Below are positions 1 through 14,784 of a DNA stretch of 15,718 bases, in pieces. The translations under genes and the position numbers were made by a program. Below the pieces are notes generated by a model that saw only the letters and a list, made by a program, of their open reading frames with translations, was not told the DNA's origin and did not search any database. Position 1 is the first letter of the stretch. Every line of letters begins with the position of its first letter. Source of the DNA: a virus (lineage: Duplodnaviria; Heunggongvirae; Uroviricota; Caudoviricetes); IMG/VR virus record IMGVR_UViG_3300029504_000114, positions 1 through 15,718 of that record; one strand, written 5' to 3'.

Positions 1-1053
1 TTACGGGGTAATGCCAACCGCTGCCGCCACTTTGTCGCCACTTGGCAGCGTTGCCAGAGGATTGAAACGGAGCGCCGTTTCCAGATGATCCGGTGCCAGA
101 TGTGCGTAACGCATAGTCATTTTTATATCGTGGTGTCCGAGAATTTTTTGTAAGGCCAGAATGTTTCCACCCGACATCATGAAGTGCGCCGCAAACGTAT
201 GGCGCAGAACGTGTGTGAGTTGACCGCGAGGGAGCACGATAGACGTTTTTTCCATCACGGATAAAAATTGAAAATAGCAGTCTGTGAAGAAATTGAACCC
301 ATCAAGCGCCATGATCTCTTCGTAAAGCTCTTTACTGATAGGGATGCTTCTGTTTTTCTTCCCCTTCGTTCTTACAAAGGTAATTCGGTATTTGGTCACC
401 TGTGAACGAGTAAGATTTACGGCTTCTCGCCAGCGTGCGCCTGTGCTTAAGCATATCTTAACTACCAGTGCCAGAATTGGGTCCTGACGTTTGCAATCAG
501 CCAGTAATTCAACAATCTGCTCATGGGTAAGCCATGCCATCTCTTTTTCTGCGATGGTGAATTTTCGCATGTTCTCCAGTGGGTTCGGATACGACCATTC
601 GCCCAGGCGGGATAGTTCGCTAAAAACACTACTTAGATAGCTTTGCTCCAGGTTAATGGTGACCGGGCTTGCTCCTTTCTTCCATTTCTCGCTGAAGTAG
701 ATCTCACCTGTCAGGCGTTTATCTCGATAGTGGGCAAACATTTTAGAGGTTAGATCAGTTGCAAGGGGATTGCCCAGAGCGTCAACCATCAGCAGCAATT
801 TGTCATAGACATGCTGCCCAGCTGTCAGTGATTTACCATGTAGTTTGAACCATAGCTCAACCACGTCTTTCAGTGTTCGACGATCCACTGATTCTCCCAG
901 CCAGGGCTTTGCTTCGGTTTCTTCCATCGTATGGCGCTCAAAAGCCAGAGCTTCGCCTTTGGTGGCGAATTGTTTACGCACACGACGCCCACTACGTCCG
1001 GCGGGGTAACATTCGCAAAGCCATTTTCCTGTGGTGAGTTTTCGTACTGCCAT
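1..1053 (-). CDS. int: Phage tyrosine integrase (P2/186 Int-like)
   Basis: ORF 1..1131 (-); likely start is the Met of MAVRKLTTGKW at 1053, preceded by GGAGGG. C-terminal catalytic-region features (R...HxxR...Y: LRHTFAAHF..., MRYAHL). Stop TAA at 1-3. Confidence 0.9.
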   Translation of the reverse strand: MAVRKLTTGKWLCECYPAGRSGRRVRKQFATKGEALAFERHTMEETEAKPWLGESVDRRTLKDVVELWFKLHGKSLTAGQHVYDKLLLMVDALGNPLATDLTSKMFAHYRDKRLTGEIYFSEKWKKGASPVTINLEQSYLSSVFSELSRLGEWSYPNPLENMRKFTIAEKEMAWLTHEQIVELLADCKRQDPILALVVKICLSTGARWREAVNLTRSQVTKYRITFVRTKGKKNRSIPISKELYEEIMALDGFNFFTDCYFQFLSVMEKTSIVLPRGQLTHVLRHTFAAHFMMSGGNILALQKILGHHDIKMTMRYAHLAPDHLETALRFNPLATLPSGDKVAAAVGITP

Positions 1054-1239
1054 AAAAAATGCCCTCCAATAGAGAGCATTTTTACTGTATATATAACCAG
1101 TGTCAATGTATGAAATCCTGCGACCATACATCTCACTGAAGCCATAATGAAGTTGGCTATTTTTTGCTATGTGAGTATGTGACTTTTGCGGTTAGCCTGC
1201 GGCTCATTGTTATATTAGGCGCAGATATAAAAGCAAAAT

Positions 1240-1431
1240 TTATCGCGAGTTTTTAGTACAGATTTTTTTTGATTTACTAATAGTTCCATCATTGCAAACG
1301 AACTTTCCATCGGAGGTACAGTGAGAGACACCTCCCTTTTTCCCAGAACAAGGATAATTTTTAGCATAGGTAGTTAGTGGGTTTAATAACAAAGAGCATG
1401 ATAAAACCACAAAAAATACCTTACCAAGCAT
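1240..1431 (-). CDS. Small secreted cysteine-rich protein (signal peptide + ~40 aa mature part with 4 Cys), unknown function; moron candidate
   Basis: Strong RBS (GGGAGGAAA, 5 nt before ATG on minus strand); N-terminal hydrophobic signal-like stretch [23 protein letters not shown]; lies in an AT-rich segment between cI and int. Confidence 0.5.
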
Positions 1432-1446
1432 AGTTTCCTCCCGGTA

Positions 1447-2022
1447 TTACCTAACGTACTTAATTGTTAAACTTATAATTTTCCCAATTATTTCAACATC
1501 TTCTATCTTGCACTCGAAGGCTCTGTTTCCACCTTCAACGAAGATTCTTCCACCGGGTAAACGAGTAATGTCGCGGATTGTTATTTCGCCATCAATACTT
1601 ATTACCCATTTACCGTCACGTATATCATCAAATTCTTTATCACAAATAAATTCAGAATTGTTATCTGTGATGACAAAAGGTTTTTTAAACGTAGAGGGTA
1701 GAAATCCCTTATCAAAAATATAAAAACCGTCTTCACGCAAGGCACCATCAGATAATACATATTTAGCAACTTCCATAGTATTTGTATTACCTGAAGTTTG
1801 CTTTGAACCATGTCCGGTTGTGAGCCAATTAAGCGAGGTGCCCGTTTCAAGGGCGCACTGGATTACCCATTCTGCTGGGAATGAGTCACGCATGTAGCGT
1901 GTGGCGAGTGTACTTTTAGAGATTCCTAAATGATCGCACAACGCCTGTCGAGTTTTGAATCCATAAGCTTCTACCATGCGCTCTATAGCGCCTCGTCCGC
2001 CTTTCTCCAAATTCATGGTCAC
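1447..2022 (-). CDS. cI: CI-type immunity repressor (phage 186 CI-like, ~190 aa)
   Basis: 191 aa, divergent from the early operon; N-terminal HTH-like region (ERMVEAYGFKTRQALCDHLGISKSTLATRYMR) and overall resemblance to 186 CI as recalled; position between int and apl/cox. Confidence 0.8.
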   Translation of the reverse strand: MTMNLEKGGRGAIERMVEAYGFKTRQALCDHLGISKSTLATRYMRDSFPAEWVIQCALETGTSLNWLTTGHGSKQTSGNTNTMEVAKYVLSDGALREDGFYIFDKGFLPSTFKKPFVITDNNSEFICDKEFDDIRDGKWVISIDGEITIRDITRLPGGRIFVEGGNRAFECKIEDVEIIGKIISLTIKYVR

Positions 2023-3719: not shown

Positions 3720-3946
3720 TGGCTGATGCAATGGATCTCGTACAGCAGCGCGTTGAAGAAGAACGCCAACGCCATATCCGTGCTGCCCGTGCCAAAACGC
3801 CGGGCGTGTCCCGCGTGCTTTGCATTGAGTGTGAAGCGCCAATTCCGCCAGCACGCCGCCGTGCCATTCCGGGTGTGCAGCTTTGCATTACCTGTCAGGA
3901 AATCGCAGAGCTGAAAGGCAAACATTACAACGGAGGTGCTGTATGA
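3719..3946 (+). CDS. TraR/DksA-family C4 zinc-finger protein
   Basis: 75 aa with CIEC...(17 aa)...CITC four-cysteine motif; typical phage TraR-like position upstream of the replication gene. Confidence 0.7.
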   Translation: MADAMDLVQQRVEEERQRHIRAARAKTPGVSRVLCIECEAPIPPARRRAIPGVQLCITCQEIAELKGKHYNGGAV

Positions 3947-4800
3947 GCACCATCCTGAAATGGGCGGGAAATAAAACTGCCATAATGTCCGAACTGAAAA
4001 AACATCTTCCTGCTGGCCCGCGACTGGTTGAACCTTTCGCGGGTTCCTGTGCTGTGATGATGGAGACGGATTATCCCAGCTATCTGGTTGCGGATATTAA
4101 TCCTGATTTAATCAACCTCTATAAAAAGGTTGCCGCTGATTGTGAATCGTTTATATCTCGCGCCAGAGTTTTATTTGAGATCGCAAACAGGGAGGTGGCT
4201 TATTACAACATAAGGCAGGAGTTTAATTACTCAACTGAAATTACTGATTTCATGAAAGCGGTATATTTCCTGTATCTCAATCGTCACGGTTACCGTGGTT
4301 TATGTCGCTATAACAAGAGCGGGCATTTCAACATTCCCTACGGTAATTATAAAAATCCGTATTTCCCTGAAAAAGAAATTCGCGCATTTGCAGAAAAGGC
4401 CCAGCGAGCAACGTTTATCTGCGCCAGCTTTGATGAAACGCTGGCGATGTTGAAGGCGGGGGATGTGGTGTATTGCGATCCGCCGTATGACGGTACGTTT
4501 TCCGGCTATCACACTGACGGCTTCACTGAAGATGACCAGTATCACCTGGCATCTGTTCTTGAACATCGGTCATCAGAAGGACATCCGGTCATTGTTTCTA
4601 ACAGTGACACATCCCTGATCCGTTCGCTGTATCGCAATTTTACTCACCACTACATCAAGGCAAAACGCAGCATCGGTGTGGCAGCTGGCGAGGGTAAATC
4701 AGCAACAGAAATCATTGCTGTTTCCGAGCCGCGCTGCTGGGTGGGATTTGATTATTCGCGTGGCGTGGATAGTTCTGCCGTGTACGGAGTACGTGCATGA
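3943..4800 (+). CDS. dam: DNA adenine methyltransferase (Dam-like, GATC-specific family)
   Basis: Start [11 protein letters not shown] (ATGA overlap with upstream stop); DPPY catalytic motif encoded at 4477-4488; ORF 3883..4800 trimmed to the Met with the coupled start. Confidence 0.85.
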
Positions 4801-7211
4801 GTCATGCCGATATGAACAACTGCTGCGGCTTTAACGAAGCTGCCGCATCGTTCTCATGGAACAGCCCGAAAAAGGCCATTAACCCTTATCTGGACCCGGT
4901 GGAAGTTGCGCCGGTTTCTACGCTTTCAAACCTGATCACTCTGTACGCTGCCGATAACGAGCAGGAACAGCTGCGCCGTGAGGCGCTGAGTGATCAGGTC
5001 TGGGAGCGTTATTTCTTTAATGAATCCCGTGATCCTGTCCAGCGCGAAATGGAACAGGATAAGCTCATTAGTCGGGCAAAGCTGGCGCATGAGCAGCAGC
5101 GTTTTAATCCGGATATGGTCATTCTGGCGGACGTCAACGCCCAGCCTTCCCATATCAGCAAGCCGCTGATGCAACGTATTGAATACTTCAGCAGCCTGGG
5201 CAGGCCAAAGGCTTATTCCCGCTATTTACGTGAGACGATTAAGCCATGTTTGGAACGACTGGAGCATGTACGCGACAGTCAGCTATCTGCATCTTTTCGC
5301 TTTATGGCAAGCCATGAAGGGCTGGACGGCCTGCTGATCCTGCCTGAAATGAGTCAGGATCAGGTGAAACGCCTGTCTACCTTGGTAGCTGCGCATATGA
5401 GTATGTGCCTTGATGCCGCTTGTGGCGATTTGTATGCCACCGATGACGTTAAGCCAGAAGAAATCCGCAATACATGGGAAAGGGTGGCAGCGGAAACCCT
5501 GCGTCTGGATGTCATCCCGCCTGCGTTTGAGCAACTCCGTCGGAAAAGAAACCGCCGTAAACCCGTGCCCTATGAACTCATTCCGGGTTCGCTGGCGCGT
5601 ATGTTGTGCGCCGACTGGTGGTATCGGAAATTATGGAAGATGCGTTGCGAATGGCGGGAAGAGCAGTTGCGTGCAGTCTGCCTTGTCAGCAAAAAAGCAT
5701 CTCCTTATGTCAGCTATGAAGCCGTGATGCATAAACGTGAGCAGCGCCGTAAGTCGCTGGAGTTTTTCCGTTCTCATGAGCTGGTGAACGAAGACGGCGA
5801 CACGCTGGACATGGAGGATGTGGTAAACGCCAGCAGCAGCAACCCAGCGCATCGCCGCAATGAGATGATGGCCTGTGTTAAAGGTCTGGAGCTTATCGCG
5901 GAAATGCGCGGTGACTGCGCCGTTTTCTACACCATCACCTGTCCGTCACGTTTCCATTCCACGCTAAATAACGGCAGGCCCAACCCAACCTGGACAAATG
6001 CGACGGTAAGACAAAGCAGTGATTATCTGGTCGGCATGTTTGCTGCATTTCGTAAGGCGATGCACAAAGCCGGATTGCGGTGGTATGGCGTGCGGGTGGC
6101 TGAGCCGCATCATGACGGTACAGTTCACTGGCACCTGTTGTGTTTTATGCGCAAAAAAGACCGCCGCACCATCACTGCATTACTGCGTAAGTTTGCCATC
6201 CGTGAAGACCGCGAGGAGCTGGGCAATAACACTGGGCCGCGCTTTAAGTCTGAGTTGATTAACCCGCGCAAAGGTACGCCAACAAGCTACATCGCGAAAT
6301 ACATCAGTAAGAACATTGACGGGCGTGGTCTGGCTGGCGAGATCAGCAAGGAAACGGGGAAATCCCTGCGTGATAATGCTGAATACGTTAATGCCTGGGC
6401 GTCTCTGCATCGTGTTCAGCAATTCCGCTTCTTTGGCATTCCGGGGCGTCAGGCTTACCGTGAACTGCGATTGCTGGCTGGTCAGGCGGCAAGGCAACAG
6501 GGGGACAAAAAAGCAGGTGCGCCGGTACTGGATAACCCGCGCCTTGATGCCATTCTGGCTGCTGCTGATGCTGGTTGTTTTGCCACCTACATCATGAAGC
6601 AGGGTGGCGTACTGGTTCCCCGCAAATATCACCTCATCAGAACTGCTTATGAAATCAACGAAGAGCCGACCGCCTATGGCGATCACGGCATTCGTATTTA
6701 TGGCATCTGGTCACCTATTGCAGAGGGCAAGATCTGCACTCATGCCGTGAAGTGGAAAATGGTTCGTAAGGCCGTTGACGTTCAGGAGGCGGCAGCCGAC
6801 CAGGGCGCTTGCGCCCCTTGGACTCGTGGCAATAACTGTCCCCTTGCTGAAAATTTGAACCAACAAGGGAAAGACAAATCAGCTGATGGGGATACCAGAA
6901 CGGACATTACCCGCATGGATGACAAGGAGTTGCACGATTACCTGCACAGTATGAGCAAAAAAGAGCGCCGGGAACTGGCTGCAAGGTTACGCCTGGTGAA
7001 ACCGAAACGGCGTAAAGACTACAAACAGCGAATTACAGACCATCAGCGACAGCAGCTTGTCTATGAGCTGAAGTCCAGAGGATTTGATGGTAGCGAGAAA
7101 GAGGTCGATTTACTCCTTCGCGGCGGCAGTATTCCGTCAGGAGCAGGCCTGCGTATCTTCTATCGGAACCAGCGTTTGCAGGAAGATGATAAGTGGCGGG
7201 ATCTGTATTAA
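4797..7211 (+). CDS. A: Replication initiation protein A (P2 gpA-type rolling-circle endonuclease)
   Basis: 804 aa; motifs [15 protein letters not shown] and [12 protein letters not shown] characteristic of P2/186 gpA; ATGA overlap with dam. Confidence 0.9.
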
Positions 7212-7302: not shown

Positions 7303-7322
7303 TACTGTAAATATAAACAGTG
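7303..7322. promoter_or_regulatory. LexA (SOS) box
   Basis: TACTGTAAATATAAACAGTG: CTGT-N8-ACAG at 7305-7320, ~45 bp upstream of the 62-aa ORF; an adjacent partial site ATGTATACAGTA lies at 7326-7337. Confidence 0.6.
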
Positions 7323-7362: not shown

Positions 7363-7551
7363 ATGCAGGACTATTTTTTGGAGTCTTTGAAGCTCCAGCG
7401 CATTGATTTTTTTCTTAAGCTTGTGGCGGCTAGTGAGTGTAGTGATGAAGAGAAGGGGCTGGCTCTGCAGTGGGTTTCTGAATTGACTGATGAACTCATG
7501 GCAAAAATCAGAACCCACGAATACAACCGCTCAATGGATGTCATCAGCTGA
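7363..7551 (+). CDS. Small protein, possible N-terminal part of a split Tum-like antirepressor
   Basis: 62 aa with strong RBS AGGAGG; directly downstream of the LexA box and upstream of the DinI-like ORF. Confidence 0.45.
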   Translation: MQDYFLESLKLQRIDFFLKLVAASECSDEEKGLALQWVSELTDELMAKIRTHEYNRSMDVIS

Positions 7552-7561
7552 GGTGACTTTT

Positions 7562-7795
7562 ATGCGCATTGAAATAATGATCGATAAAGAGCAGAAGATT
7601 AGCCAGTCTACCCTGGACGCCCTTGAATCCGAGCTTTACCGCAATCTGCGCCCCCTGTATCCCAAAACGGTAATTCGCATTCGCAAAGGTAGCTCTAACG
7701 GGGTGGAACTAACCGGACTGCAACTGGACGAAGAAAGAAAACAAGTGATGAAAATTATGCAGAAGGTGTGGGAAGACGACAGCTGGCTGCATTAA
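7562..7795 (+). CDS. DinI-like protein (Tum C-terminal domain-like)
   Basis: Start MRIEIMIDKEQ at 7562 with RBS GAGGTG; 77 aa; DinI-family pattern (MRIE... near N-terminus, ...WEDDSWLH at C-terminus). Confidence 0.75.
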   Translation: MRIEIMIDKEQKISQSTLDALESELYRNLRPLYPKTVIRIRKGSSNGVELTGLQLDEERKQVMKIMQKVWEDDSWLH

Positions 7796-7930
7796 GAAAC
7801 GTTGCTGGCGTCTGAACTTGCTTCTGGCGTCAGCAAGGTTGAACAACGAGCCCTTGCGAGGCGTTAGCTCTGTAGTGCATGTCTATGCCGCATGAGATCG
7901 CATGATCGTTTGAGGATCGTTTTTGCTAAG

Positions 7931-7954
7931 GCCCGCCAGAACTGGCGGGCTTTT
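7931..7954 (+). terminator. Rho-independent terminator after the tum/dinI-like operon
   Basis: GCCCGCCAG / CTGGCGGGC perfect 9-bp stem followed by TTTTG. Confidence 0.6.
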
Positions 7955-8026
7955 GCGTAGATCATGCAGGTGCATGAAAACCACTACATAAAGCGGGCAG
8001 GCGTGGCGGGGATACGAGCGCGCGCC

Positions 8027-8055
8027 TTGCCTTATATCTATTTGTTCATTAAAAT
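8027..8055 (+). promoter_or_regulatory. Candidate promoter for the retron ncRNA/RT operon
   Basis: TTGCCT (8027-8032), 17-bp spacer, TAAAAT (8050-8055); predicted start near 8062. Confidence 0.3.
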
Positions 8056-8061
8056 CATTAT

Positions 8062-8218
8062 GCTCTTTAGTGTAGGAACATTGGTTCCAGCCGGGTGATT
8101 AGCCAGGCTTAAATTTATTGTCCGGTTTAGGGTTGCGAAAGACACAGATTTCTCCTTCGCATCCCTGCCCGGGGCAGATATGCGAAGGAGAAATCTGTGT
8201 CTTTCGCTGTCTTTAGTG
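8062..8218 (+). ncRNA. Candidate retron msr-msd non-coding RNA (exact ends and a1/a2 unresolved)
   Basis: Non-coding segment directly upstream of the retron-type RT; small stem-loop GGAAC-ATTG-GTTCC (8075-8088) then a 73-nt near-perfect hairpin (8135-8207); bounded by a 9-bp direct repeat TCTTTAGTG (8064-8072 and 8210-8218). Confidence 0.55.
8135..8207. repeat. Long near-perfect inverted repeat / hairpin (candidate msd stem-loop of msDNA)
   Basis: GCGAAAGACACAGATTTCTCCTTCGCAT (8135-8162) is the exact reverse complement of 8180-8207; the centre CTGCCC-G-GGGCAG is itself palindromic. Confidence 0.9.
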
Positions 8219-8273
8219 AAGAGTCAAAGCGCTATGTAAAGTTGCATAGCGCTTTGGTTTTAAGAGGGGTTAT

Positions 8274-9209
8274 ATGCAACTAACTTCTAAAATTATCAGT
8301 AAGTTTAATTATAATAGATTAGCTTTCCAATTACTTTTAAATGAGGCCCCCAAAAAATATAAAGTTTATTATATTCCTAAACGTGGCGCAGGTTTTCGGG
8401 TGATAGCTCAGCCGACAAAGGAACTAAAAAACGTACAGAGATTTATAGTATCTTTGCTACAGCCAAAGCTGCCTGTTCATCATAAGGCAATGGCATATGA
8501 ATATAAAAAAAGTATTAAAGATAATGCATTGTTGCATAAAGATAATAATTATATTCTTAAAATGGATTTTCAGAACTTCTTTAACAAAATTAAACCTGAT
8601 ATATTTTTCTCGAAACTTGAGAACACAGGGCTGAAATTGGATTCATTTGATGAGAACACCCTACGTAATTTGCTTTTTTGGCGTCCGGGAAAAAAGAGAA
8701 GTACAACGTTGATATTAAGTGTAGGGGCGCCAAGCTCACCATTTATTAGTAATTTTGTTATGTATGACTTTGACAAGAGTCTTGATGATTGGTGCCGTAA
8801 CAATGGTATCACTTATTCAAGGTATGCAGATGATATAACTTTTTCAACTAATATTAAGGATATATTGTGCAGGGTTCCTAAGGTGGTAAAAAAAATGTTG
8901 TCGCTCCATGTTCCCGGTCTATCAATCAATGAATCTAAAACAATTTTTACATCGATGGCTCATAATCGGCACGTGACTGGTGTAACACTTACACCTCAGG
9001 GCAATTTATCAATTGGTCGCGATCGTAAAAGGATGCTGTTTGCAAAGATTCATAAATATTCTTTGGGACTCTTATCTTCCGAAGAAATAAATAAAACCAA
9101 AGGGATGATTGCGTTTGCAAATTATTTGGAGGGTGATTTTTTATTAAGGTTACAAAAAAAATATGGTTGTGAGTTAATAACTAAGTTCCTGATGGAAGGA
9201 AACAAATAA
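8274..9209 (+). CDS. Retron-type reverse transcriptase
   Basis: 311 aa; RT motifs YYIPKRGAGFRVI, LKMDFQNFF, VGAPSSP, YSRYADDITFS (YADD at 8823-8834) and the retron-typical NRHVTGV (VTG) motif; RBS AAGAGGGG. Confidence 0.9.
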   Translation: MQLTSKIISKFNYNRLAFQLLLNEAPKKYKVYYIPKRGAGFRVIAQPTKELKNVQRFIVSLLQPKLPVHHKAMAYEYKKSIKDNALLHKDNNYILKMDFQNFFNKIKPDIFFSKLENTGLKLDSFDENTLRNLLFWRPGKKRSTTLILSVGAPSSPFISNFVMYDFDKSLDDWCRNNGITYSRYADDITFSTNIKDILCRVPKVVKKMLSLHVPGLSINESKTIFTSMAHNRHVTGVTLTPQGNLSIGRDRKRMLFAKIHKYSLGLLSSEEINKTKGMIAFANYLEGDFLLRLQKKYGCELITKFLMEGNK

Positions 9210-10843
9210 TGATAAATAAAATGAATTTAGAGACTTGCTATGTTGATTTTTTAGAGTTGGAATCACATGTGATAAACGAGGATTATTTGAAGGAGTCTGT
9301 TGAGCTTCAAAAGCTAATATCTACTTTAAATGAGAGTAAGTTTCATTTAAATAAAATAGGTATACATGATTTTAAACGGATAAGAGAACTACAGATTTCT
9401 TTAGAAGATGATTTGACTGTTTTTGTCGGGGATAACGGATTCGGTAAAAGCACTATTTTGGATGCAATAGCAATTGTTTTGAGTTGGTTGAGATCAAATA
9501 TTGAAAAGGAGAGTAAGCCTGGTACTTATATTAAAAGCCATGAAGTTAATAACTCTGTTGATGTTGAGTATGCATCAATTGATGCAAATATAAAACTCAA
9601 GGACTTTAATACCAGTATTTTGATTACTAAAGCGAAAGAGGGGGCATATTATTCTAGAAATAATGAATTGTTGGAGGTAAAAAAACTTGCAAGTATTTAT
9701 AGACTTGTGAATAAATATGTTGATAATGCAAGCTTGCCTTTGATGGCATATTATTCTATTGCGCGTTCTTATATAGGCGGTGGGGTTGATAGGAAAAGAA
9801 AAAATGCTAAAACTAAAACTGTATGGTCAAAATTCGATGTGTATGATGAAATCGAGTTTGACAGAAATGATTTTACCGATTTTTTTCAATGGCTTGTATT
9901 TCTTCATAACAGAGCTTCACAAGAGAAATTGAGTGAGTCACAAACGACAATCAATGCGTTATTTTCAGATATTCAGAGTTTGAAAGCAACATTAACTCAA
10001 CTATCTGCGATTGATAATATTGATTCAACAGTTATAAAAGGTTTAGAGCTTTCGCTTAAAGAAAAATTGAACTACATGAAATCTCTGCAATCAGGAGAAC
10101 ATAAGTTTAATAATGCAGTATCACTTTATGATAGTGTTATAAATACCATTCTAAAGTTCTTGCCTGAATTTCAGTGGATTAAGCTTGTTTATGGTGATGA
10201 TGATTATAAGATTATCCTTAAAAAAGGAGAGGTTGAATTAGATATTCAACAGTTGTCTCAAGGTGAGAAAACTATATTTACTTTAGTTGGTGATTTGGCT
10301 CGACGTTTAATTTTACTTAATCCTAATTTATCTAATCCTCTATTGGGATATGGGATTGTTTTAATTGATGAAATTGATTTGCATTTGCATCCGCAATGGC
10401 AACAGACAATTATTGAGCGTTTGACATCTACATTCCCAAATGTTCAATTTGTAATTACTACCCATAGCCCACAGGTTTTATCCACTGTTAGCTCTCGTTC
10501 AGTGCGTATTCTACAGGAAGTGGAAGTAGATGGTGTTAATGATTTGATAGTGTCTCACCCCGACTATCAAATAAAAGGTGTTAGTAATCAGGATGCACTT
10601 TTATATGGAATGAGAACTGATCCTATACCCTCTACTAAAGAAAATGGTTGGCTTGAAGAATATAAAAAATTGGTTGAGCTTAATCGTTATAGCAGTGACG
10701 AGGCTCTTTTGTTAAGAGAAAAAGTTATTAAACATTTCGGATTAGACCATCCTTTAGTTCAAGAGTGTGATGATCTTATATCTGTTTTGGAGTTCAAAAA
10801 TAAGATAAATCAGCACTTTTCTGGAAGTAAGGATGTAAAATGA
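9209..10843 (+). CDS. ABC/SMC-type ATPase (PtuA-like retron effector ATPase)
   Basis: 544 aa; Walker A GDNGFGKST (9428-9454), signature-like LSQGEK, Walker B VLIDEIDLHLH, H-loop-like ITTHSP; start overlaps the RT stop (TAATG). Confidence 0.85.
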   Translation: MINKMNLETCYVDFLELESHVINEDYLKESVELQKLISTLNESKFHLNKIGIHDFKRIRELQISLEDDLTVFVGDNGFGKSTILDAIAIVLSWLRSNIEKESKPGTYIKSHEVNNSVDVEYASIDANIKLKDFNTSILITKAKEGAYYSRNNELLEVKKLASIYRLVNKYVDNASLPLMAYYSIARSYIGGGVDRKRKNAKTKTVWSKFDVYDEIEFDRNDFTDFFQWLVFLHNRASQEKLSESQTTINALFSDIQSLKATLTQLSAIDNIDSTVIKGLELSLKEKLNYMKSLQSGEHKFNNAVSLYDSVINTILKFLPEFQWIKLVYGDDDYKIILKKGEVELDIQQLSQGEKTIFTLVGDLARRLILLNPNLSNPLLGYGIVLIDEIDLHLHPQWQQTIIERLTSTFPNVQFVITTHSPQVLSTVSSRSVRILQEVEVDGVNDLIVSHPDYQIKGVSNQDALLYGMRTDPIPSTKENGWLEEYKKLVELNRYSSDEALLLREKVIKHFGLDHPLVQECDDLISVLEFKNKINQHFSGSKDVK

Positions 10844-11523
10844 AATATCTATCTAGGCAAATGCCAGGGCCTTCCGTTCTTAATAAATTTGACTATAGGA
10901 GGGATGATTGGAATTCCCTATCATCAAATGATAAAAAAGAAATATGGGAAGAAATAATAAAAATGCAAGGTAAATTATGTGCTTATTGCGAGAAAAAAAT
11001 AGAGCATCATAAAAGTGGTGGCAAAAATAAAGTTGAGAGGCATATTGAGCATTTTTACAGGAAAAGTTATTACAAAAATTTAACTTTCGAGTGGTCTAAT
11101 TTGTTTGGCTCATGTGGTGAGCCGCAAAGGTGTGGGTTTTATAAGGATAAGCAAAAATATAACGATGATGATTTAATTAAAGCTGATAGACAAAATCCAG
11201 ATGTTTTTTTCCATTTTTTGGAAAATGGTGATGTTCATATTAGAGAAGGCTTGAATGAGAAAGAACACAAAATGGCAGAGGTTACGTTAAGAGTATTTAA
11301 CTTAAACCCGTCCTCAGGAGGAGTCAAGGCGGAAAGAAGACGTGCAATAGAATTAAGCATGACATTAATAAAGGAACTGGTCGGATGTGCATCTCAGCTT
11401 ATTGAATCAGGATGTGAAATTGAAGATGTTAGATCTATGGTCTTTGATGAGTTTAAAAAGAATGTAAAAGATAGATGCTTTACCACTGCGATAAAGCATG
11501 TTTTTGAGAATAGAATGCCTTAA
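10840..11523 (+). CDS. HNH endonuclease (PtuB-like retron effector nuclease)
   Basis: 227 aa; CAYC...HHKSGGKNKVERHIEHF...NL...SCGEPQRC HNH/zinc-finger pattern; ATGA overlap with the ATPase stop indicates translational coupling. Confidence 0.85.
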   Translation: MKYLSRQMPGPSVLNKFDYRRDDWNSLSSNDKKEIWEEIIKMQGKLCAYCEKKIEHHKSGGKNKVERHIEHFYRKSYYKNLTFEWSNLFGSCGEPQRCGFYKDKQKYNDDDLIKADRQNPDVFFHFLENGDVHIREGLNEKEHKMAEVTLRVFNLNPSSGGVKAERRRAIELSMTLIKELVGCASQLIESGCEIEDVRSMVFDEFKKNVKDRCFTTAIKHVFENRMP

Positions 11524-11546
11524 AGGTTAGAGGGATGTATATATAA

Positions 11547-12160
11547 TTAATCTATATTATATTCTGAGAAATTGATAATATGCATCCCTATCCACTGATT
11601 AAATTCATGGATTTTTTTTTGTAGAGGTACTAATTCATTTGTCACAAAAACCTTACTAGCTTTCTCCACATCCCCAAAACCCCCAACATTATTAGGCATT
11701 ATCCCCATCATCTGTGGCGGAACGCGATGTGCTGCCATCATGTCATCGCGGCTGACATTTTTGATATTCAGAAACTCATCCTTCGCCGCAACTTCTGACA
11801 AAGGGATGATCTGAAGGCCGTCCTTTTTGCCATTAGGCGAGTACATAAACAGGTTGCGGAAGTTGCCTGGACCTTTGGCGCTTTTCATCGCGTTGCGGAG
11901 ATTGTTCACATCCTCCTGATTCTGCGCGGCGTCGGTCATGTACATGATGAAGCCTGCATGGCTGCCGTTGATGTAATACTTACGGCGGAACAGCGTGGCA
12001 GACTCGTTGAGCAGGGCGGATGGAATGGCAGAAAGATAGCCTGGCAGGCCGTAGATCTCCTGGTTGATGTCCGGTTCCATCAGATGAAAAATGCTGCCTT
12101 TCGTGAACTGATACGGCTGGGTTGTCATACCGTATTGCACAAACCAGTAGGTACCCGCGA
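11547..12160 (-). pseudogene. Portal protein (P2 gpQ-like) fragment lacking its N-terminal part; 3' end possibly altered by the cargo junction
   Basis: Portal-like sequence from MTTQPYQFTKG onward (ATG at 12126-12128) toward lower coordinates; the upstream part of ORF 11547..12347 is antisense to the D' fragment and not portal-like. Junction coordinate approximate. Confidence 0.6.
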
Positions 12161-12554
12161 ACCTGCGAAGAAAGAAAGCACCACGGTGAAGCGTAAGCGC
12201 AGAACTAAGAAGCAGAAGAAAGAGCCAGAAGCGAAGCAGGGCGATTACCTGGTGGGTACGGATGAAAACGTGCTGGTACTTAATCGCACTTATGCCAACC
12301 GGAGCAACGCCGAACGAGCGGCGAAAATGCAGTGGGAACGCCTGCAACGCGGCGTTGCGTCATTCTCGCTACAACTGGCAGAAGGGCGGGCAGATCTCTA
12401 CACGGAAATGCCAGTGAAAGTCAGTGGCTTTAAACAGCCGATAGATGATGCGGAATGGACCATTACGACTCTGACGCATACCATCAGCCCGGATAACGGT
12501 TTTACGACCAGTCTGGAGCTTGAAGTGAGGATTGATGATTTCGAAATGGAATGA
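12160..12554 (+). pseudogene. Tail protein D (P2 gpD-like) C-terminal fragment
   Basis: C-terminal ~130 aa of ORF 11958..12554 (...LNRTYANRSNAERAAKMQWERLQRGV...FTTSLELEVRIDDFEME) resembles gpD C-terminus as recalled; N-terminal 65 aa of the ORF is antisense to the portal fragment. Junction approximate. Confidence 0.55.
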
Positions 12555-12644: not shown

Positions 12645-12863
12645 ATGATGATTTGCCCACTGTGTGGAAGTGCCGCCCATACTCGCAGCAGTTTTCAGGT
12701 ATCTTCATTGACCAAAGAGCGTTACAACCAGTGCCAGAACATTAACTGCAGCCATACTTTTGTTACCCATGAAACTTTTGTTCGTTCGATTGCAACGCCA
12801 AAAGAGTCAAATCCGGTTCAGCCGCATCCAATGAAATCAGGACAGGTGGCGCTCTCTCTTTGA
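12645..12863 (+). CDS. ogr: Ogr/Delta-family zinc-finger late transcription activator
   Basis: Start MMICPLCGSAAHTRSS (ATG 12645, RBS GGGGAGA); CPLC...(Ogr-type) ...CQNINCSHTF zinc-finger pattern; ~72 aa. Confidence 0.8.
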   Translation: MMICPLCGSAAHTRSSFQVSSLTKERYNQCQNINCSHTFVTHETFVRSIATPKESNPVQPHPMKSGQVALSL

Positions 12864-13098: not shown

Positions 13099-14784
13099 TT
13101 ATCCTAATCCTGGCCATACCATGACGATGATTGTCCCTGCCAGCGTCAGCAGGACGTTGGCGATTGCATAGGTGCCCGCATAGCCCAGCGCCGGGATGTT
13201 ACTGCGAGCTGTATCACTGATGATCTCCATTGCCGGCGCGCAGGTACGTGCGCCCATCATTGCGCCGAACAACAGCGCGCGGTTCATTCGCAATACATAA
13301 GCACCGAACAAGAAACAGATAACCACGGGCACCAGACTGACAATCAATCCGGCAATCAACATCTGACCGCCAATCGCGCCCAGGCCGTTATTAATACCGC
13401 TACCGGCGCTCAGACCAACGCCTGCCATAAACACCATCAAGCCGAACTCTTTCACCATGCTTAATGCACCCTGCGGAATGTAACCGAAGGTCGGGTGGTT
13501 AGCACGCATAAAGCCCAGCATAATTCCGGCGAATAACAACCCGGCAGCGTTCCCCATGCCGAAACTGAATGTGCTGAACTGGAAGGTGATCATCCCGATC
13601 ATCAGCCCAATAACAAAGAAGGCGCAGAATGCCAGCAGGTCAGTGACCTGGCTGTGAATCGAGATAAAGCCGATGCGATCGGCGATGGTTTTTACGCGGC
13701 GGGCATCGCCGCTGACTTGTAAAACGTCACCTTTGTTAAGCACGACGTTGTCATCTATCGGCATCTCAATCTGGCTACGAATGACGCGGTTAAGGAAGCA
13801 ACCGTGATCGGTCAACTTCAGTTGTGCGAGACGTTTACCTACAGCGTTATGGTTTTTAACGACCACTTCTTCAGTGACGATACGCATGTCGAGAAGGTCA
13901 CGATCGAAAACTTCTTTACCGTTACGGAAGCTGGGATCGAGTCGGGCATGGGCGTCGGGATAGCCTACCAACGCTATTTCATCGCCCATTTGTAGCACGG
14001 CATCACCGTCTGGATTTGCCAGAATCCCGTTACGTCGAATACGTTCAATGTAGCAGCCGGTTTGTCGATAAATACCCAGTTCACGCAGATTTTTGCCGTC
14101 GGTCCAGGCCACCAGTTCCGGGCCGACGCGATAGGCGCGGATCACCGGTAAATAAACCTTACGGTTGGCATCAGTGTCCAGGCCACGTTCGCGGGCGATT
14201 TGCTGGGCGCTGGTCTGTAAGTCCTGATGCTGCAATTTCGGCAAGTAACGCGCACCAACAATCAAACTCACCAGACCGATTAAATAGGTTAAGGCATACC
14301 CGAGGCTCAGATTATCCAGTGCCAGTGAGAGCTGCCTGCTTTCCATGCCGGAATGACGCAGTGTATCGCCAGCACCGACCAGAACCGGTGTCGACGTCAT
14401 AGAGCCTGCTAACATACCGGCCGTCAGGCCAATATCCCAGCCAAACAGCTTACCTAACCCTAAGGCGATCACCAGCGCACTGCCAACCATCACCAGTGCT
14501 AACATTAGGTAATTTTTCCCATCGCGAAAAAAAATGGAAAAAAAGTTCGGTCCGGCTTCGACCCCGACGCAGAAAATAAACAGCATAAAGCCAAGATTAA
14601 GCGCATCGGTGTTAATGCTGAAATGTTGTTGGCCTAATAACAGCGATACGACTAAAACGCCAATGGAATTACCCAGTTGGATCGAACCAAGTCGTAACTT
14701 TCCGAGACATAGCCCAAGCGCGAGGACCACAAATAATAACAGAATGTAATTCCCATTTAACAATTCGGCGACGTTTATATTCAC
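13099..14784 (-). CDS. ybjL: Putative transporter YbjL (AAE family, with two RCK/TrkA-C-like domains)
   Basis: 561 aa; starts [24 protein letters not shown] and matches E. coli YbjL as recalled; host gene. Confidence 0.9.

What the first reader, a model, noticed from the sequence alone, without database searches (positions are those of the whole stretch)
7960..11700. Retron sits as AT-rich cargo in the variable slot between the replication/tum region and the portal end
Base composition visibly shifts to AT-rich from about 8030 to about 11640, covering the ncRNA, RT, ATPase and HNH. The slot corresponds to where P2 carries tin/old, a known site for exchangeable anti-phage cargo. The right edge of the cargo appears to run into the 3' end of the portal remnant, with no cos-like GC-rich sequence between the HNH stop (11523) and the portal ORF stop (11547). 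The insertion therefore seems to have replaced cos and the native portal 3' end.
Basis: partly seen in the sequence, partly recalled or inferred. Interest (0 to 1): 0.6.

Follow-up and report, generated by a model that had tools for sequence, protein, structure and literature searches.

The report
Known retron in phage cos–portal slot
An already characterised anti-phage retron (the E. coli FORC 82 type I-A retron) sits in the long-known variable slot between the DNA-packaging site (cos) and the portal gene of a decayed 186/Fels-2-like prophage; cos is intact just upstream of the retron, not lost, so the finding is real but ordinary.

Summary
The AT-rich block is real: GC is 0.336 over 8026-11546, against at least 0.447 in every other 3.5 kb stretch of the window. 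It holds a complete type I-A retron: msr-msd ncRNA, RT, PtuA ATPase and PtuB HNH. This is the published E. coli FORC 82 retron (PDB 9n69).

The cohesive-end sequence GGCGTGGCGGGGATACGAG lies at 8000-8018, upstream of the retron, inside a conserved 150-bp cos island (7876-8025). All 14 related loci lose similarity to the window within a few bases of 8025.

The cargo therefore lies between cos and the portal gene. That is the slot described for retrons Ec67 and Ec86 (Dodd & Egan 1996), and BL21's Ec86 occupies it here. P2 tin/old and 186 orf97 lie on the other side of cos.

The portal 3' end is full length and collinear with P2 Q and 186 W. Its last ~40 codons are AT-rich, hypervariable and travel with the cargo. 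A homologous-recombination crossover maps to 11662-11678.

The portal is separately truncated at its 5' end by a strain-specific deletion that joins it to gpD.

Verdict: already known, low interest.

The parts
7490..7795 (+). DinI/Tum-like gene, the last backbone gene before the cos region
   Evidence: Pfam DinI, E 1.3e-22. Annotated as a DinI-like family protein in relatives. A perfect LexA-box consensus lies at 7305-7320 upstream of the operon.
7867..7876 (.). Empty upstream cargo sub-slot on the gpA side of cos, positionally equivalent to P2 tin/old and 186 orf97
   Evidence: In L007, L008, L011, L012 and L013 homology to the window breaks at 7867/7868 and resumes at 7873-7876, with extra genes in between. 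In L010 and L014 it breaks at 7793 and resumes at 7877. P2 tin/old and 186 orf97 lie on this side of cos.
7876..8025 (+). Conserved 150-bp cos island: hairpin plus T-run (7931-7954), a core shared with the P2 and 186 right ends, the 19-nt cohesive-end sequence, and CGCGCGC
   Evidence: 84-100% identical in all related loci, whatever cargo flanks it. The core from about -37 to +26 aligns with the 186 and P2 cos junctions. GC is 0.56.
8000..8018 (+). Cohesive-end sequence GGCGTGGCGGGGATACGAG (cosN equivalent)
   Evidence: The first 13 nt are identical to the annotated 186 cos at 1-19. Salmonella phage SEN8's record begins with exactly this 19-mer plus CGCGCGC, annotated 'putative cos site'. The SEN8 and EtG records end at the base equivalent to window 7999. 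Fels-2 has the same sequence.
8027..8055 (+). Promoter-like site TTGCCT-17-TAAAAT at the start of the cargo, just upstream of msr
   Evidence: Consensus scan. This is a single match, no more than chance would give, so its role as the retron promoter is inferred from position only.
8062..8265 (+). Retron ncRNA (msr 8062-8126; msd long hairpin 8135-8207; 3' hairpin to about 8257)
   Evidence: Rfam msr E 7.6e-7 and STnc400 (msd-like) E 4.7e-14. RNA fold -108.6 kcal/mol, z = -10.9.
8274..9209 (+). Retron reverse transcriptase, type I-A
   Evidence: 311/311 identical to PDB 9n69 chain E. NCBIfam retron_St85_RT 321 bits. PADLOC RT_I-A 435 bits.
9209..10843 (+). PtuA SMC-family ATPase effector
   Evidence: PDB 9n69_A, 1190 bits over residues 2-544. 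PADLOC PtuA and ATPase_I-A. NCBIfam PtuA 472 bits, below that model's cut-off of 500.
10840..11523 (+). PtuB HNH nuclease effector
   Evidence: PDB 9n69_F, 526 bits over 1-227. NCBIfam PtuB 161 bits, above the cut-off of 150. PADLOC PtuB and HNH_I-A.
11547..11678 (-). Cargo-linked portal 3' tail (last ~44 codons): AT-rich, hypervariable between cargo types, but collinear with P2 Q and 186 W
   Evidence: GC 0.31 and GC3 0.27. Aligns with P2 and 186 to the stop codon. Between relatives, nt identity is 0.45-0.59 here against about 0.9 upstream. This allele occurs at >=99% only in the 4 retron-bearing genomes of 5,426. There are 0-1 mismatches to the other retron loci.
11662..11678 (.). Interval containing the right-hand homologous-recombination crossover of the window's mosaic
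   Evidence: The window equals FORC_082 (same cargo) up to 11678 and then diverges by 8%. The window equals BS15R-A and Combat2C1 (other cargo) with 0 mismatches from 11662 to 12153.
11679..12156 (-). Portal body remnant (backbone allele). The portal's 5' ~140 codons are missing.
   Evidence: Pfam Phage_portal. 100% identical to the portals of BS15R-A and Combat2C1. Homology to full-length portals stops at 12156.
12152..12554 (+). gpD (late control D / VgrG-like) C-terminal remnant, joined to the portal remnant by a deletion with a 5-nt overlap (12152-12156)
   Evidence: Pfam Phage_GPD. BLAST segments abut at 12152/12156. No complete E. coli genome has this joint as one contiguous piece.

Best explanation
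The window is a decayed 186/Fels-2-like (Peduoviridae) prophage at the E. coli rcdA/ybjL site. [quoted passage not shown]

Shown:
- cos is retained at 8000-8018 inside a conserved 150-bp island.
- The variable cargo begins 7 bp after the cohesive-end sequence (8026) and runs into the last ~40 codons of the convergently transcribed portal gene.
- The block 'cos island + retron + portal tail' is found on different backbones.
- The window is a recombinant. Its cargo block matches FORC_082 and its portal body matches prophages that carry another cargo. The crossover lies in 11662-11678.

Inferred:
- Cargo is exchanged between related phages and prophages by homologous recombination, using the conserved cos island or left flank and the conserved portal body as arms.
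- The sharp left edge reflects the limit of sequence required for cos function.
- The divergent AT-rich portal tail reflects long-term linkage to non-homologous cargo alleles.

Taken from the literature for the identical proteins:
- The msDNA made by the RT scaffolds and restrains PtuA4-PtuB.
- Phage nucleases degrade the msDNA, which releases the HNH nuclease to cleave tRNA-Ser and arrest translation.
- The system defends against T3 and T5.

A later deletion specific to this strain removed the late genes from the portal 5' part to gpD. The prophage is therefore defective, while the defence operon remains intact.
For: Composition.

Gene identities. ncRNA.

cos:
- The motif and its flanks are conserved in 14 related loci.
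- It aligns with the annotated cos of 186 and P2.
- Phage records are linearised exactly at window-equivalent 7999/8000.

Slot:
- The left break is at 8024-8029 in every locus, and similarity resumes at 11569-11644.
- P2 and 186 have only about 170 bp with a terminator between cos and the portal.
- SEN8, Fels-2 and BL21's Ec86 prophage carry cargo in this slot.
- IMG/VR contigs carry this retron next to a full portal, terminase, scaffold and capsid genes.

Recombination.

Literature:
- PMC9122126 (the gpA-gpQ cos-proximal defence hotspot, including retrons).
- PMC12475279 (mechanism of the FORC 82 retron).
Against: - Function of this particular cos variant has not been demonstrated. SEN8's feature is labelled 'putative', and the 19-mer differs from 186's at 4 positions.
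- The left-hand crossover could not be resolved, because the backbone is a fine mosaic.
- All loci found with this retron are close relatives within one phage lineage, so only one clear transfer event (the window's) is documented.
- The promoter call at 8027-8055 is no better than chance.
- Hitchhiking is not a tested explanation for the AT-richness of the portal tail.
Confidence: 0.9

Rival explanations
1. One reading: insertion of the retron deleted cos and overwrote the native portal 3' end, so the packaging functions at this junction were destroyed by the insertion.
For: Nothing cos-like lies in the 23 nt between the HNH stop and the portal stop. The AT-rich composition extends into the portal ORF. 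In P2 and 186, cos does lie within 200 bp of the portal stop.
Against: cos is present at 8000-8018 with its conserved flanks. The portal reading frame continues to a normal stop and aligns with P2 Q and 186 W to the end. The same retron and junctions occur next to complete portal, terminase, scaffold and capsid genes. Named phages SEN8 and Fels-2 have the same layout.
Confidence: 0.03
2. The retron inserted itself, by RT-mediated retrotransposition or a site-specific or transposon-like event aimed at this site, rather than being swapped in by homologous recombination.
For: The left edge is razor sharp, at the same place in all loci. Retrons encode an RT.
Against: Unrelated, RT-less cargoes (PIN, TIR, AIPR and others) share exactly the same left edge, so the phage sets the edge, not the cargo. 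There is no integrase or transposase in the cargo. There are no flanking direct repeats beyond chance 7-mers. The right edge is a graded zone inside homologous portal sequence, and the mapped crossover lies within conserved sequence.
Confidence: 0.03
3. The original capture of foreign DNA at this position happened by illegitimate end-joining at terminase-cut cos ends. The left virion end lies immediately beside the slot. Homologous recombination only spreads the result afterwards.
For: Cargo starts only 7 bp after the cohesive-end sequence in every locus. P4 satellites also have their hotspot next to cos (PMC9122126).
Against: The junction is at +26, not at a cut position (0 or +19). The +20 to +26 GCGCGC is also conserved in P2 and 186, which have no cargo, and that fits functional constraint better. 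There is no direct evidence either way for primary acquisition events.
Confidence: 0.1
4. The AT-rich, hypervariable portal tail is not passive hitchhiking. It is selected, for example to diversify a portal surface recognised by defence systems, or to provide cargo-specific termination or regulation for the convergent operons.
For: Amino-acid identity in the tail falls to 0.29-0.48 while a structural pattern (NELxPLQ..W..I.F..Y) is kept. A terminator-like hairpin for the portal strand lies inside ptuB at 11499-11475. Tail GC3 (0.27) matches the cargo rather than the portal.
Against: Third-position identity also collapses (0.36-0.41), as expected from old linked divergence rather than protein-level selection alone. 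No functional data exist. Linkage next to a non-homologous block explains the pattern without selection.
Confidence: 0.1

Closest known systems
E. coli FORC 82 type I-A retron (PDB 9n69/9n6b/9n6c; George et al. 2025, PMC12475279)
   Same: The RT is 311/311 identical. PtuA and PtuB are near-identical (1190 and 526 bits). The DNA differs from the FORC_082 locus at 2 positions between 7426 and 11678. Operon order is the same: ncRNA-RT-ATPase-HNH.
   Different: The surrounding prophage differs. The portal-body allele is another one (8% divergent), and a different internal deletion is present (portal joined to gpD at 12152-12156).
Retron Ec78 (Retron-Eco7) and Ec83 (Eco4), the canonical type I-A retrons with PtuAB effectors
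   Same: Same architecture and families: RT_I-A, PtuA, PtuB. RefSeq names the HNH gene 'retron Ec78 anti-phage system effector PtuB'.
   Different: It is a distant relative, not Ec78 itself. Against the Ec78 structures the RT scores about 282-288 bits, compared with 698 for the identical FORC 82 chain. PtuA scores about 256 against 1190 and PtuB about 112-123 against 526. The reported tRNA target also differs: tRNA-Ser for FORC 82 (PMC12475279) and tRNA-Tyr for Eco7 (abstract of PMC12673091).
Retrons Ec86 (E. coli B) and Ec67 in a 186-related prophage, replacing DNA between cos and the packaging-gene terminator (Dodd & Egan 1996, cited in PMC6868368 and PMC5694545)
   Same: For Ec86 in BL21(DE3) this was tested directly. 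It sits in the same prophage family at the same ybjL chromosomal site, with the same cos 19-mer plus CGCGCGC followed by cargo. The RT stop is 17 nt from the portal stop, and homology to the window breaks at the same places.
   Different: The cargo is a different retron type: an effector plus RT in the St85/II-A style, against RT plus PtuA plus PtuB. Ec67 itself was not examined here.
P2 tin/old and 186 orf97 (the gpA-gpQ 'cos-proximal' defence hotspot of Rousset et al. 2022, PMC9122126)
   Same: Same gpA-to-gpQ interval, adjacent to cos, carrying exchangeable anti-phage genes. Retrons are listed among the systems at this hotspot.
   Different: tin/old and orf97 lie on the gpA side of cos, at the right end of the virion DNA. 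The retron lies on the portal side, at the left end. In the window the tin/old-equivalent sub-slot is empty.

Membership tests
Retron type I-A (Ec78/Ec83/FORC 82 class) | Retron-clade reverse transcriptase of subtype I-A | tested here: met
   PADLOC RT_I-A is the best hit at 435 bits. NCBIfam retron_St85_RT scores 321 bits against a cut-off of 235. The protein is identical to PDB 9n69_E.
Retron type I-A (Ec78/Ec83/FORC 82 class) | msr-msd ncRNA immediately upstream of the RT, with a long msd hairpin | tested here: met
   Rfam msr E 7.6e-7, at 45.9 bits against a gathering score of 52. STnc400 (msd-like) scores 73 bits against 80. The fold has z = -10.9 with a 28-bp msd stem. Both Rfam hits fall below the curated thresholds, so the call rests on position, structure and identity to the published locus.
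Retron type I-A (Ec78/Ec83/FORC 82 class) | PtuA SMC/AAA ATPase and PtuB HNH nuclease encoded downstream of the RT | tested here: met
   PADLOC PtuA at 643 bits and ATPase_I-A at 504; PtuB at 389 and HNH_I-A at 192. NCBIfam PtuB is above its cut-off; PtuA at 472 is just below its cut-off of 500. Matches to PDB 9n69 chains A and F.
Retron type I-A (Ec78/Ec83/FORC 82 class) | Production of msDNA and anti-phage activity | not testable with these tools
   Reported for the identical FORC 82 system: msDNA of about 90 nt, defence against T3 and T5 (PMC12475279). Not measured for this strain.
Retron Ec78 (Eco7) sensu stricto | Near-identity of RT, PtuA and PtuB to the Ec78 proteins | tested here: not met
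   Scores against the Ec78 structure chains are 282-288, about 256 and 112-123 bits. Scores against the FORC 82 chains are 698, 1190 and 526 bits. It is the same subtype but a different retron.
P2/186-like (Peduoviridae) prophage | Backbone gene order: int, cI, (apl/cII/fil), A, tum/DinI, cos, portal Q, ..., D, ogr | tested here: met
   Pfam Int_N/Phage_integrase, Phage_GPA, DinI, Phage_portal and Phage_GPD. Collinear with annotated relatives. The late genes between portal and D are deleted.
cos-to-portal (cosL-gpQ) cargo hotspot of P2-like phages | Cargo lies between the cohesive-end site and the 3' end of the portal gene | tested here: met
   cos is at 8000-8018, cargo at 8026-11546 and the portal stop at 11547.
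cos-to-portal (cosL-gpQ) cargo hotspot of P2-like phages | Different, unrelated gene sets at the same position in related phages with conserved flanks | tested here: met
   Thirteen loci carry 12 different cargoes with the same left break and a right break in the portal tail.
Functional P2-type cos site | 19-nt 5' cohesive ends generated by terminase at this sequence; sufficiency for packaging | not testable with these tools
   Sequence evidence only: homology to the annotated 186 and P2 cos and flanks, and phage records linearised at this point.

The most novel reading that the evidence does not exclude
The last ~40 codons of the portal gene are a functional part of the exchangeable defence module. 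Each cargo type would then bring its own AT-rich portal C-terminal tail because the tail matters, for example to diversify a portal surface sensed by defence systems or to supply cargo-specific termination for the convergent operons. The alternative is that the tail is merely dragged along by linkage. The physical co-transfer itself is shown here. Only the functional reading is speculative.
Probability: 0.1. Interest if true: 0.5.

Novelty: already known. Interest (0 to 1): 0.15.

Why it matters
Both components are already in the literature. The retron has a solved structure and a described mechanism. The cos-to-portal slot has been recognised as a site where retrons and other accessory genes replace DNA since 1996, and as a defence hotspot since 2022.

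The value of this check is corrective:
- It shows where cos really is.
- It shows that the gpA-gpQ 'hotspot' consists of two sub-slots on either side of a 150-bp cos island.
- It shows that the right-hand exchange boundary lies inside the portal ORF, so annotation pipelines that delimit cargo by gene boundaries will misplace it.

The 17-nt crossover interval is a tidy worked example of how defence cargo moves between prophage backbones, including into one that later decayed.

Tried and rejected
1. Searching the window for the P2 cohesive-end 19-mer with up to 3 mismatches found nothing. The local variant differs at 5 positions from P2 and 4 from 186. It was found by eye and then with the core GGCGNGGCGGGG.
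2. A search for target-site duplications between the left zone (7986-8060) and the right zone (11501-11720) gave only two 7-mers, which is chance level.
3. The genome-contig scan with PtuB returned only a 27%-identical Nostoc homologue, which says nothing about this locus.
4. The viral-contig scan found four loci with the identical retron, all on closely related backbones. They became informative only once mismatches were mapped.
5. A search for the window's portal/gpD deletion joint in 5,426 genomes found no contiguous match. So whether cargo exchange came before or after the deletion cannot be settled.
6. The left-hand crossover could not be mapped. The gpA-tum region is a fine-scale mosaic with no perfect donor.
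7. The terminator scan did not flag the GCCCGCCAG/CTGGCGGGC hairpin plus T-run at 7931-7954, which is visible in the sequence. I do not claim it is equivalent to 186 t95b, because the positions differ.
8. Filing the system as 'retron Ec78', as the RefSeq product name suggests, was rejected after comparison with the solved Ec78 chains.

Full report
**Observation.** The compositional discontinuity is real and strong. GC is 0.336 for 8026-11546, 0.483 to the left and 0.491 to the right. None of 100 other 3.5-kb windows in the sequence falls below 0.447. In 60-nt windows GC falls from 0.57 to 0.37 between 7990 and 8020, and recovers from 0.32 to 0.50 between 11610 and 11670. GC3 is 0.25-0.31 for the three cargo genes and 0.27 for the last 51 portal codons. 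It is 0.67 for the rest of the portal remnant and 0.57 for gpA.

**Content of the block.**
- ncRNA: msr at 8062-8126 and an msd-type hairpin at 8128-8265 (Rfam E-values 7.6e-7 and 4.7e-14, both just under the gathering scores). The fold has z = -10.9.
- RT: 8274-9209.
- ATPase: 9209-10843.
- HNH protein: 10840-11523.

**Context.** The window is a 186/Fels-2-like prophage between rcdA and ybjL. The layout is:
- integrase (1-1131, minus strand)
- cI (1447-2022, minus strand)
- Dam-like methylase
- gpA (4797-7211)
- a small ORF plus a DinI/Tum-like gene (7363-7795)
- the cargo
- a portal remnant (11547-12156, minus strand)
- a gpD remnant (12152-12554)
- ogr (about 12645-12863)
- ybjL (13099-14784, minus strand)

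. Many E. coli genomes carry decayed versions of this prophage with different internal deletions and different cargo: PIN, TIR, AIPR, ComF-type, Hypoth_Ymh, an RNA-binding protein, and other retrons.

**Where cos is.** That gap is indeed only 23 nt. But window 8000-8018 reads GGCGTGGCGGGGATACGAG. Its first 13 nt equal the annotated cohesive end of 186, and it differs from 186 at 4 positions.

- The core from about -37 to +26 (TCATGCA..TGCAT.AAAACC....A.AAG.GGGC[A/G] GGCG.GGCGGGGA.......GCGCGC) aligns with the cos junctions of 186 and P2.
- The same 19-mer, the same upstream core and the following CGCGCGC occur in all related loci examined.
- Salmonella phage SEN8's record starts with exactly this sequence, annotated as a putative cos site.
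- The SEN8 and Erwinia phage EtG records end at the base equivalent to window 7999.
- Fels-2 has the same sequence.

cos is therefore retained, upstream of the retron. Its function in this lineage is inferred from homology and was not tested.

**Junctions.** Against 14 related loci, similarity to the window stops at 8024-8029, 7 bp after the 19-mer. It resumes at 11569-11644, inside the portal ORF. A second break occurs at 7867/7876, or at 7793/7877 in two Klebsiella phages. There, several relatives carry extra genes between the DinI-like gene and cos. This defines a conserved 150-bp cos island (7876-8025) with a variable sub-slot on each side.

P2 tin/old and 186 orf97 occupy the gpA-side sub-slot, which is empty in the window. 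The retron occupies the portal-side sub-slot. In P2 and 186 that sub-slot holds only about 170 bp with the tQ or tW terminator. No direct repeats beyond chance 7-mers flank the cargo.

[quoted passage not shown] It is also described as a hotspot 'between cosL and the gpQ homolog' (PMC5694545).

I confirmed this directly for Ec86. In BL21(DE3) the Ec86 effector and RT lie in the same prophage family at the same ybjL site. They follow the identical cos 19-mer plus CGCGCGC, and the RT stop is 17 nt from the portal stop. Rousset et al. 2022 (PMC9122126) treat the whole gpA-gpQ interval as one cos-proximal defence hotspot that includes retrons.

SEN8 and Fels-2 carry cargo in the same position. IMG/VR contigs L015 and L018 carry this very retron beside a full portal (343 aa), terminase gpP (588 aa), scaffold and capsid genes. 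The arrangement is therefore compatible with an intact packaging module.

**The portal 3' end.** The window's portal C-terminus is collinear with P2 Q and 186 W up to the stop, following the pattern NELxPLQ....N.W....I.F..Y. It is not truncated or overwritten by unrelated sequence.

In this lineage, however, the last ~30-40 codons are AT-rich and hypervariable. Across portal codons 21-300, relatives are 88-96% identical at the nucleotide level and about 99% at the protein level, with GC near 0.5. In codons 321-350 identity falls to 45-59% (nt) and 29-48% (aa), third-position identity falls to 0.36-0.41, and GC falls to 0.28. P2 and 186 keep GC 0.43-0.59 there. The window's tail allele occurs at >=99% identity only in the four retron-bearing genomes of 5,426. 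All other tails are at most about 80% identical.

**Recombination.**
- Against five loci with the same retron (FORC_082 and four IMG/VR contigs), the window has 0-1 differences in the cos island and 0-1 in the portal tail, and only a handful in the retron genes. The exception is L016, which has 52 differing alignment columns in PtuA.
- At 11679 divergence jumps abruptly to about 8% (37 differences in 478 nt). The differences are mostly spaced in multiples of three.
- Conversely, three genomes have a portal body 100% identical to the window's. Two of them (BS15R-A and Combat2C1) were examined. They have apparently intact prophages with a different two-gene cargo.
- Compared with BS15R-A, the window's tail is highly divergent up to 11661 and then shows no mismatch from 11662 to 12153.

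The window is thus a recombinant. Its cos island, retron and portal tail match the FORC_082 type, and its portal body matches the BS15R-A type. The crossover lies within 11662-11678, in the first well-conserved stretch after the variable tail. On the left, the window equals FORC_082 from 7426 onward, but the backbone further left is a fine mosaic and no donor could be identified.

The replacement is an allelic swap by homologous recombination, not damage.

**Identity and mechanism of the cargo.**
- The RT is 311/311 identical to PDB 9n69 chain E. PtuA and PtuB match chains A and F at 1190 and 526 bits.
[quoted passage not shown] FORC_082 was also the best genomic hit.
- Scores against the canonical Ec78 and Ec83 structures are far lower (RT 269-288 bits). 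The RefSeq-style label 'retron Ec78 ... PtuB' therefore indicates the subtype, not the retron.

Per that paper, the RT-made msDNA scaffolds four ATPase subunits and the HNH nuclease. Phage nucleases degrade the msDNA, and the released HNH cleaves tRNA-Ser and arrests translation. The system protects against T3 and T5 (and the abstract). I take this mechanism from the literature and did not test it here.

**Decay.** Homology to full-length portals ends at 12156, and homology to gpD begins at 12152. A deletion with a 5-nt overlap therefore removed the portal's 5' ~140 codons and all late genes up to the C-terminal part of gpD. No complete E. coli genome shares this joint. The prophage is defective, but the retron operon is intact.

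**Verdict.** The system and its location are both already known. The only mildly new point is descriptive: the exchange unit includes the cos island and the last ~40 portal codons, and one crossover was mapped to 17 nt. Interest is low.

Noticed in passing
window 7305-7320: A perfect LexA-box consensus (CTGTAAATATAAACAG) lies about 45 nt upstream of the 62-aa ORF (7363-7551) and the DinI/Tum-like gene. This resembles the SOS-controlled p95-tum operon of 186. The motif count over the whole window is not above chance (4 found, 4.3 expected), so only the position is suggestive.
   Followed up: partly
window 11475-11499 (minus strand): A terminator-like hairpin (11 pairs, then a T-rich tail) lies inside the 3' end of ptuB, about 48 nt downstream of the portal stop on the portal's strand. 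It may terminate the portal/terminase operon in place of the tQ or tW terminator that P2 and 186 have between the portal and cos. Other cargo variants have a GC-rich hairpin in the cargo-portal spacer instead (alignment A1).
   Followed up: no
window 1000-2000: A second AT-rich stretch (GC 0.34-0.37) covers a 63-aa ORF (1240-1431, minus strand) and the cI repressor gene (GC 0.40, GC3 0.34). It is also the most divergent part relative to FORC_082 (65 mismatches per kb, against 0-10 per 500 nt nearby). This suggests a different immunity allele or another small variable locus between int and cI.
   Followed up: no
window 12152-12156: The deletion joint between the portal remnant and the gpD remnant has a 5-nt overlap. 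It is not found as a contiguous sequence in any of 5,426 complete E. coli genomes. Other strains at the same site have different deletion endpoints (for example 699-nt portal remnants in L008 and L013).
   Followed up: yes
L016 (IMG/VR UViG_3300014527_000045), PtuA region equivalent to window 9210-10843: This otherwise near-identical retron locus shows 52 mismatch or indel columns within PtuA, while RT and PtuB show 0-1. This points to a localised indel, a recombined segment or an assembly error in the ATPase gene.
   Followed up: no
window 3883-4800: The prophage backbone encodes a DNA adenine methylase upstream of gpA. The Fels-2 homologue is annotated as similar to the 'retron Ec67 DNA adenine methylase'. 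So the Dam gene historically attributed to retron Ec67 appears to be a backbone gene of this phage family.
   Followed up: no
L001 (FORC_082) 15308-16108: The FORC_082 prophage, which carries the same retron, also has a TIR-domain gene inserted among truncated terminase and baseplate genes. This is a second putative defence cargo at another position in the decayed prophage.
   Followed up: no
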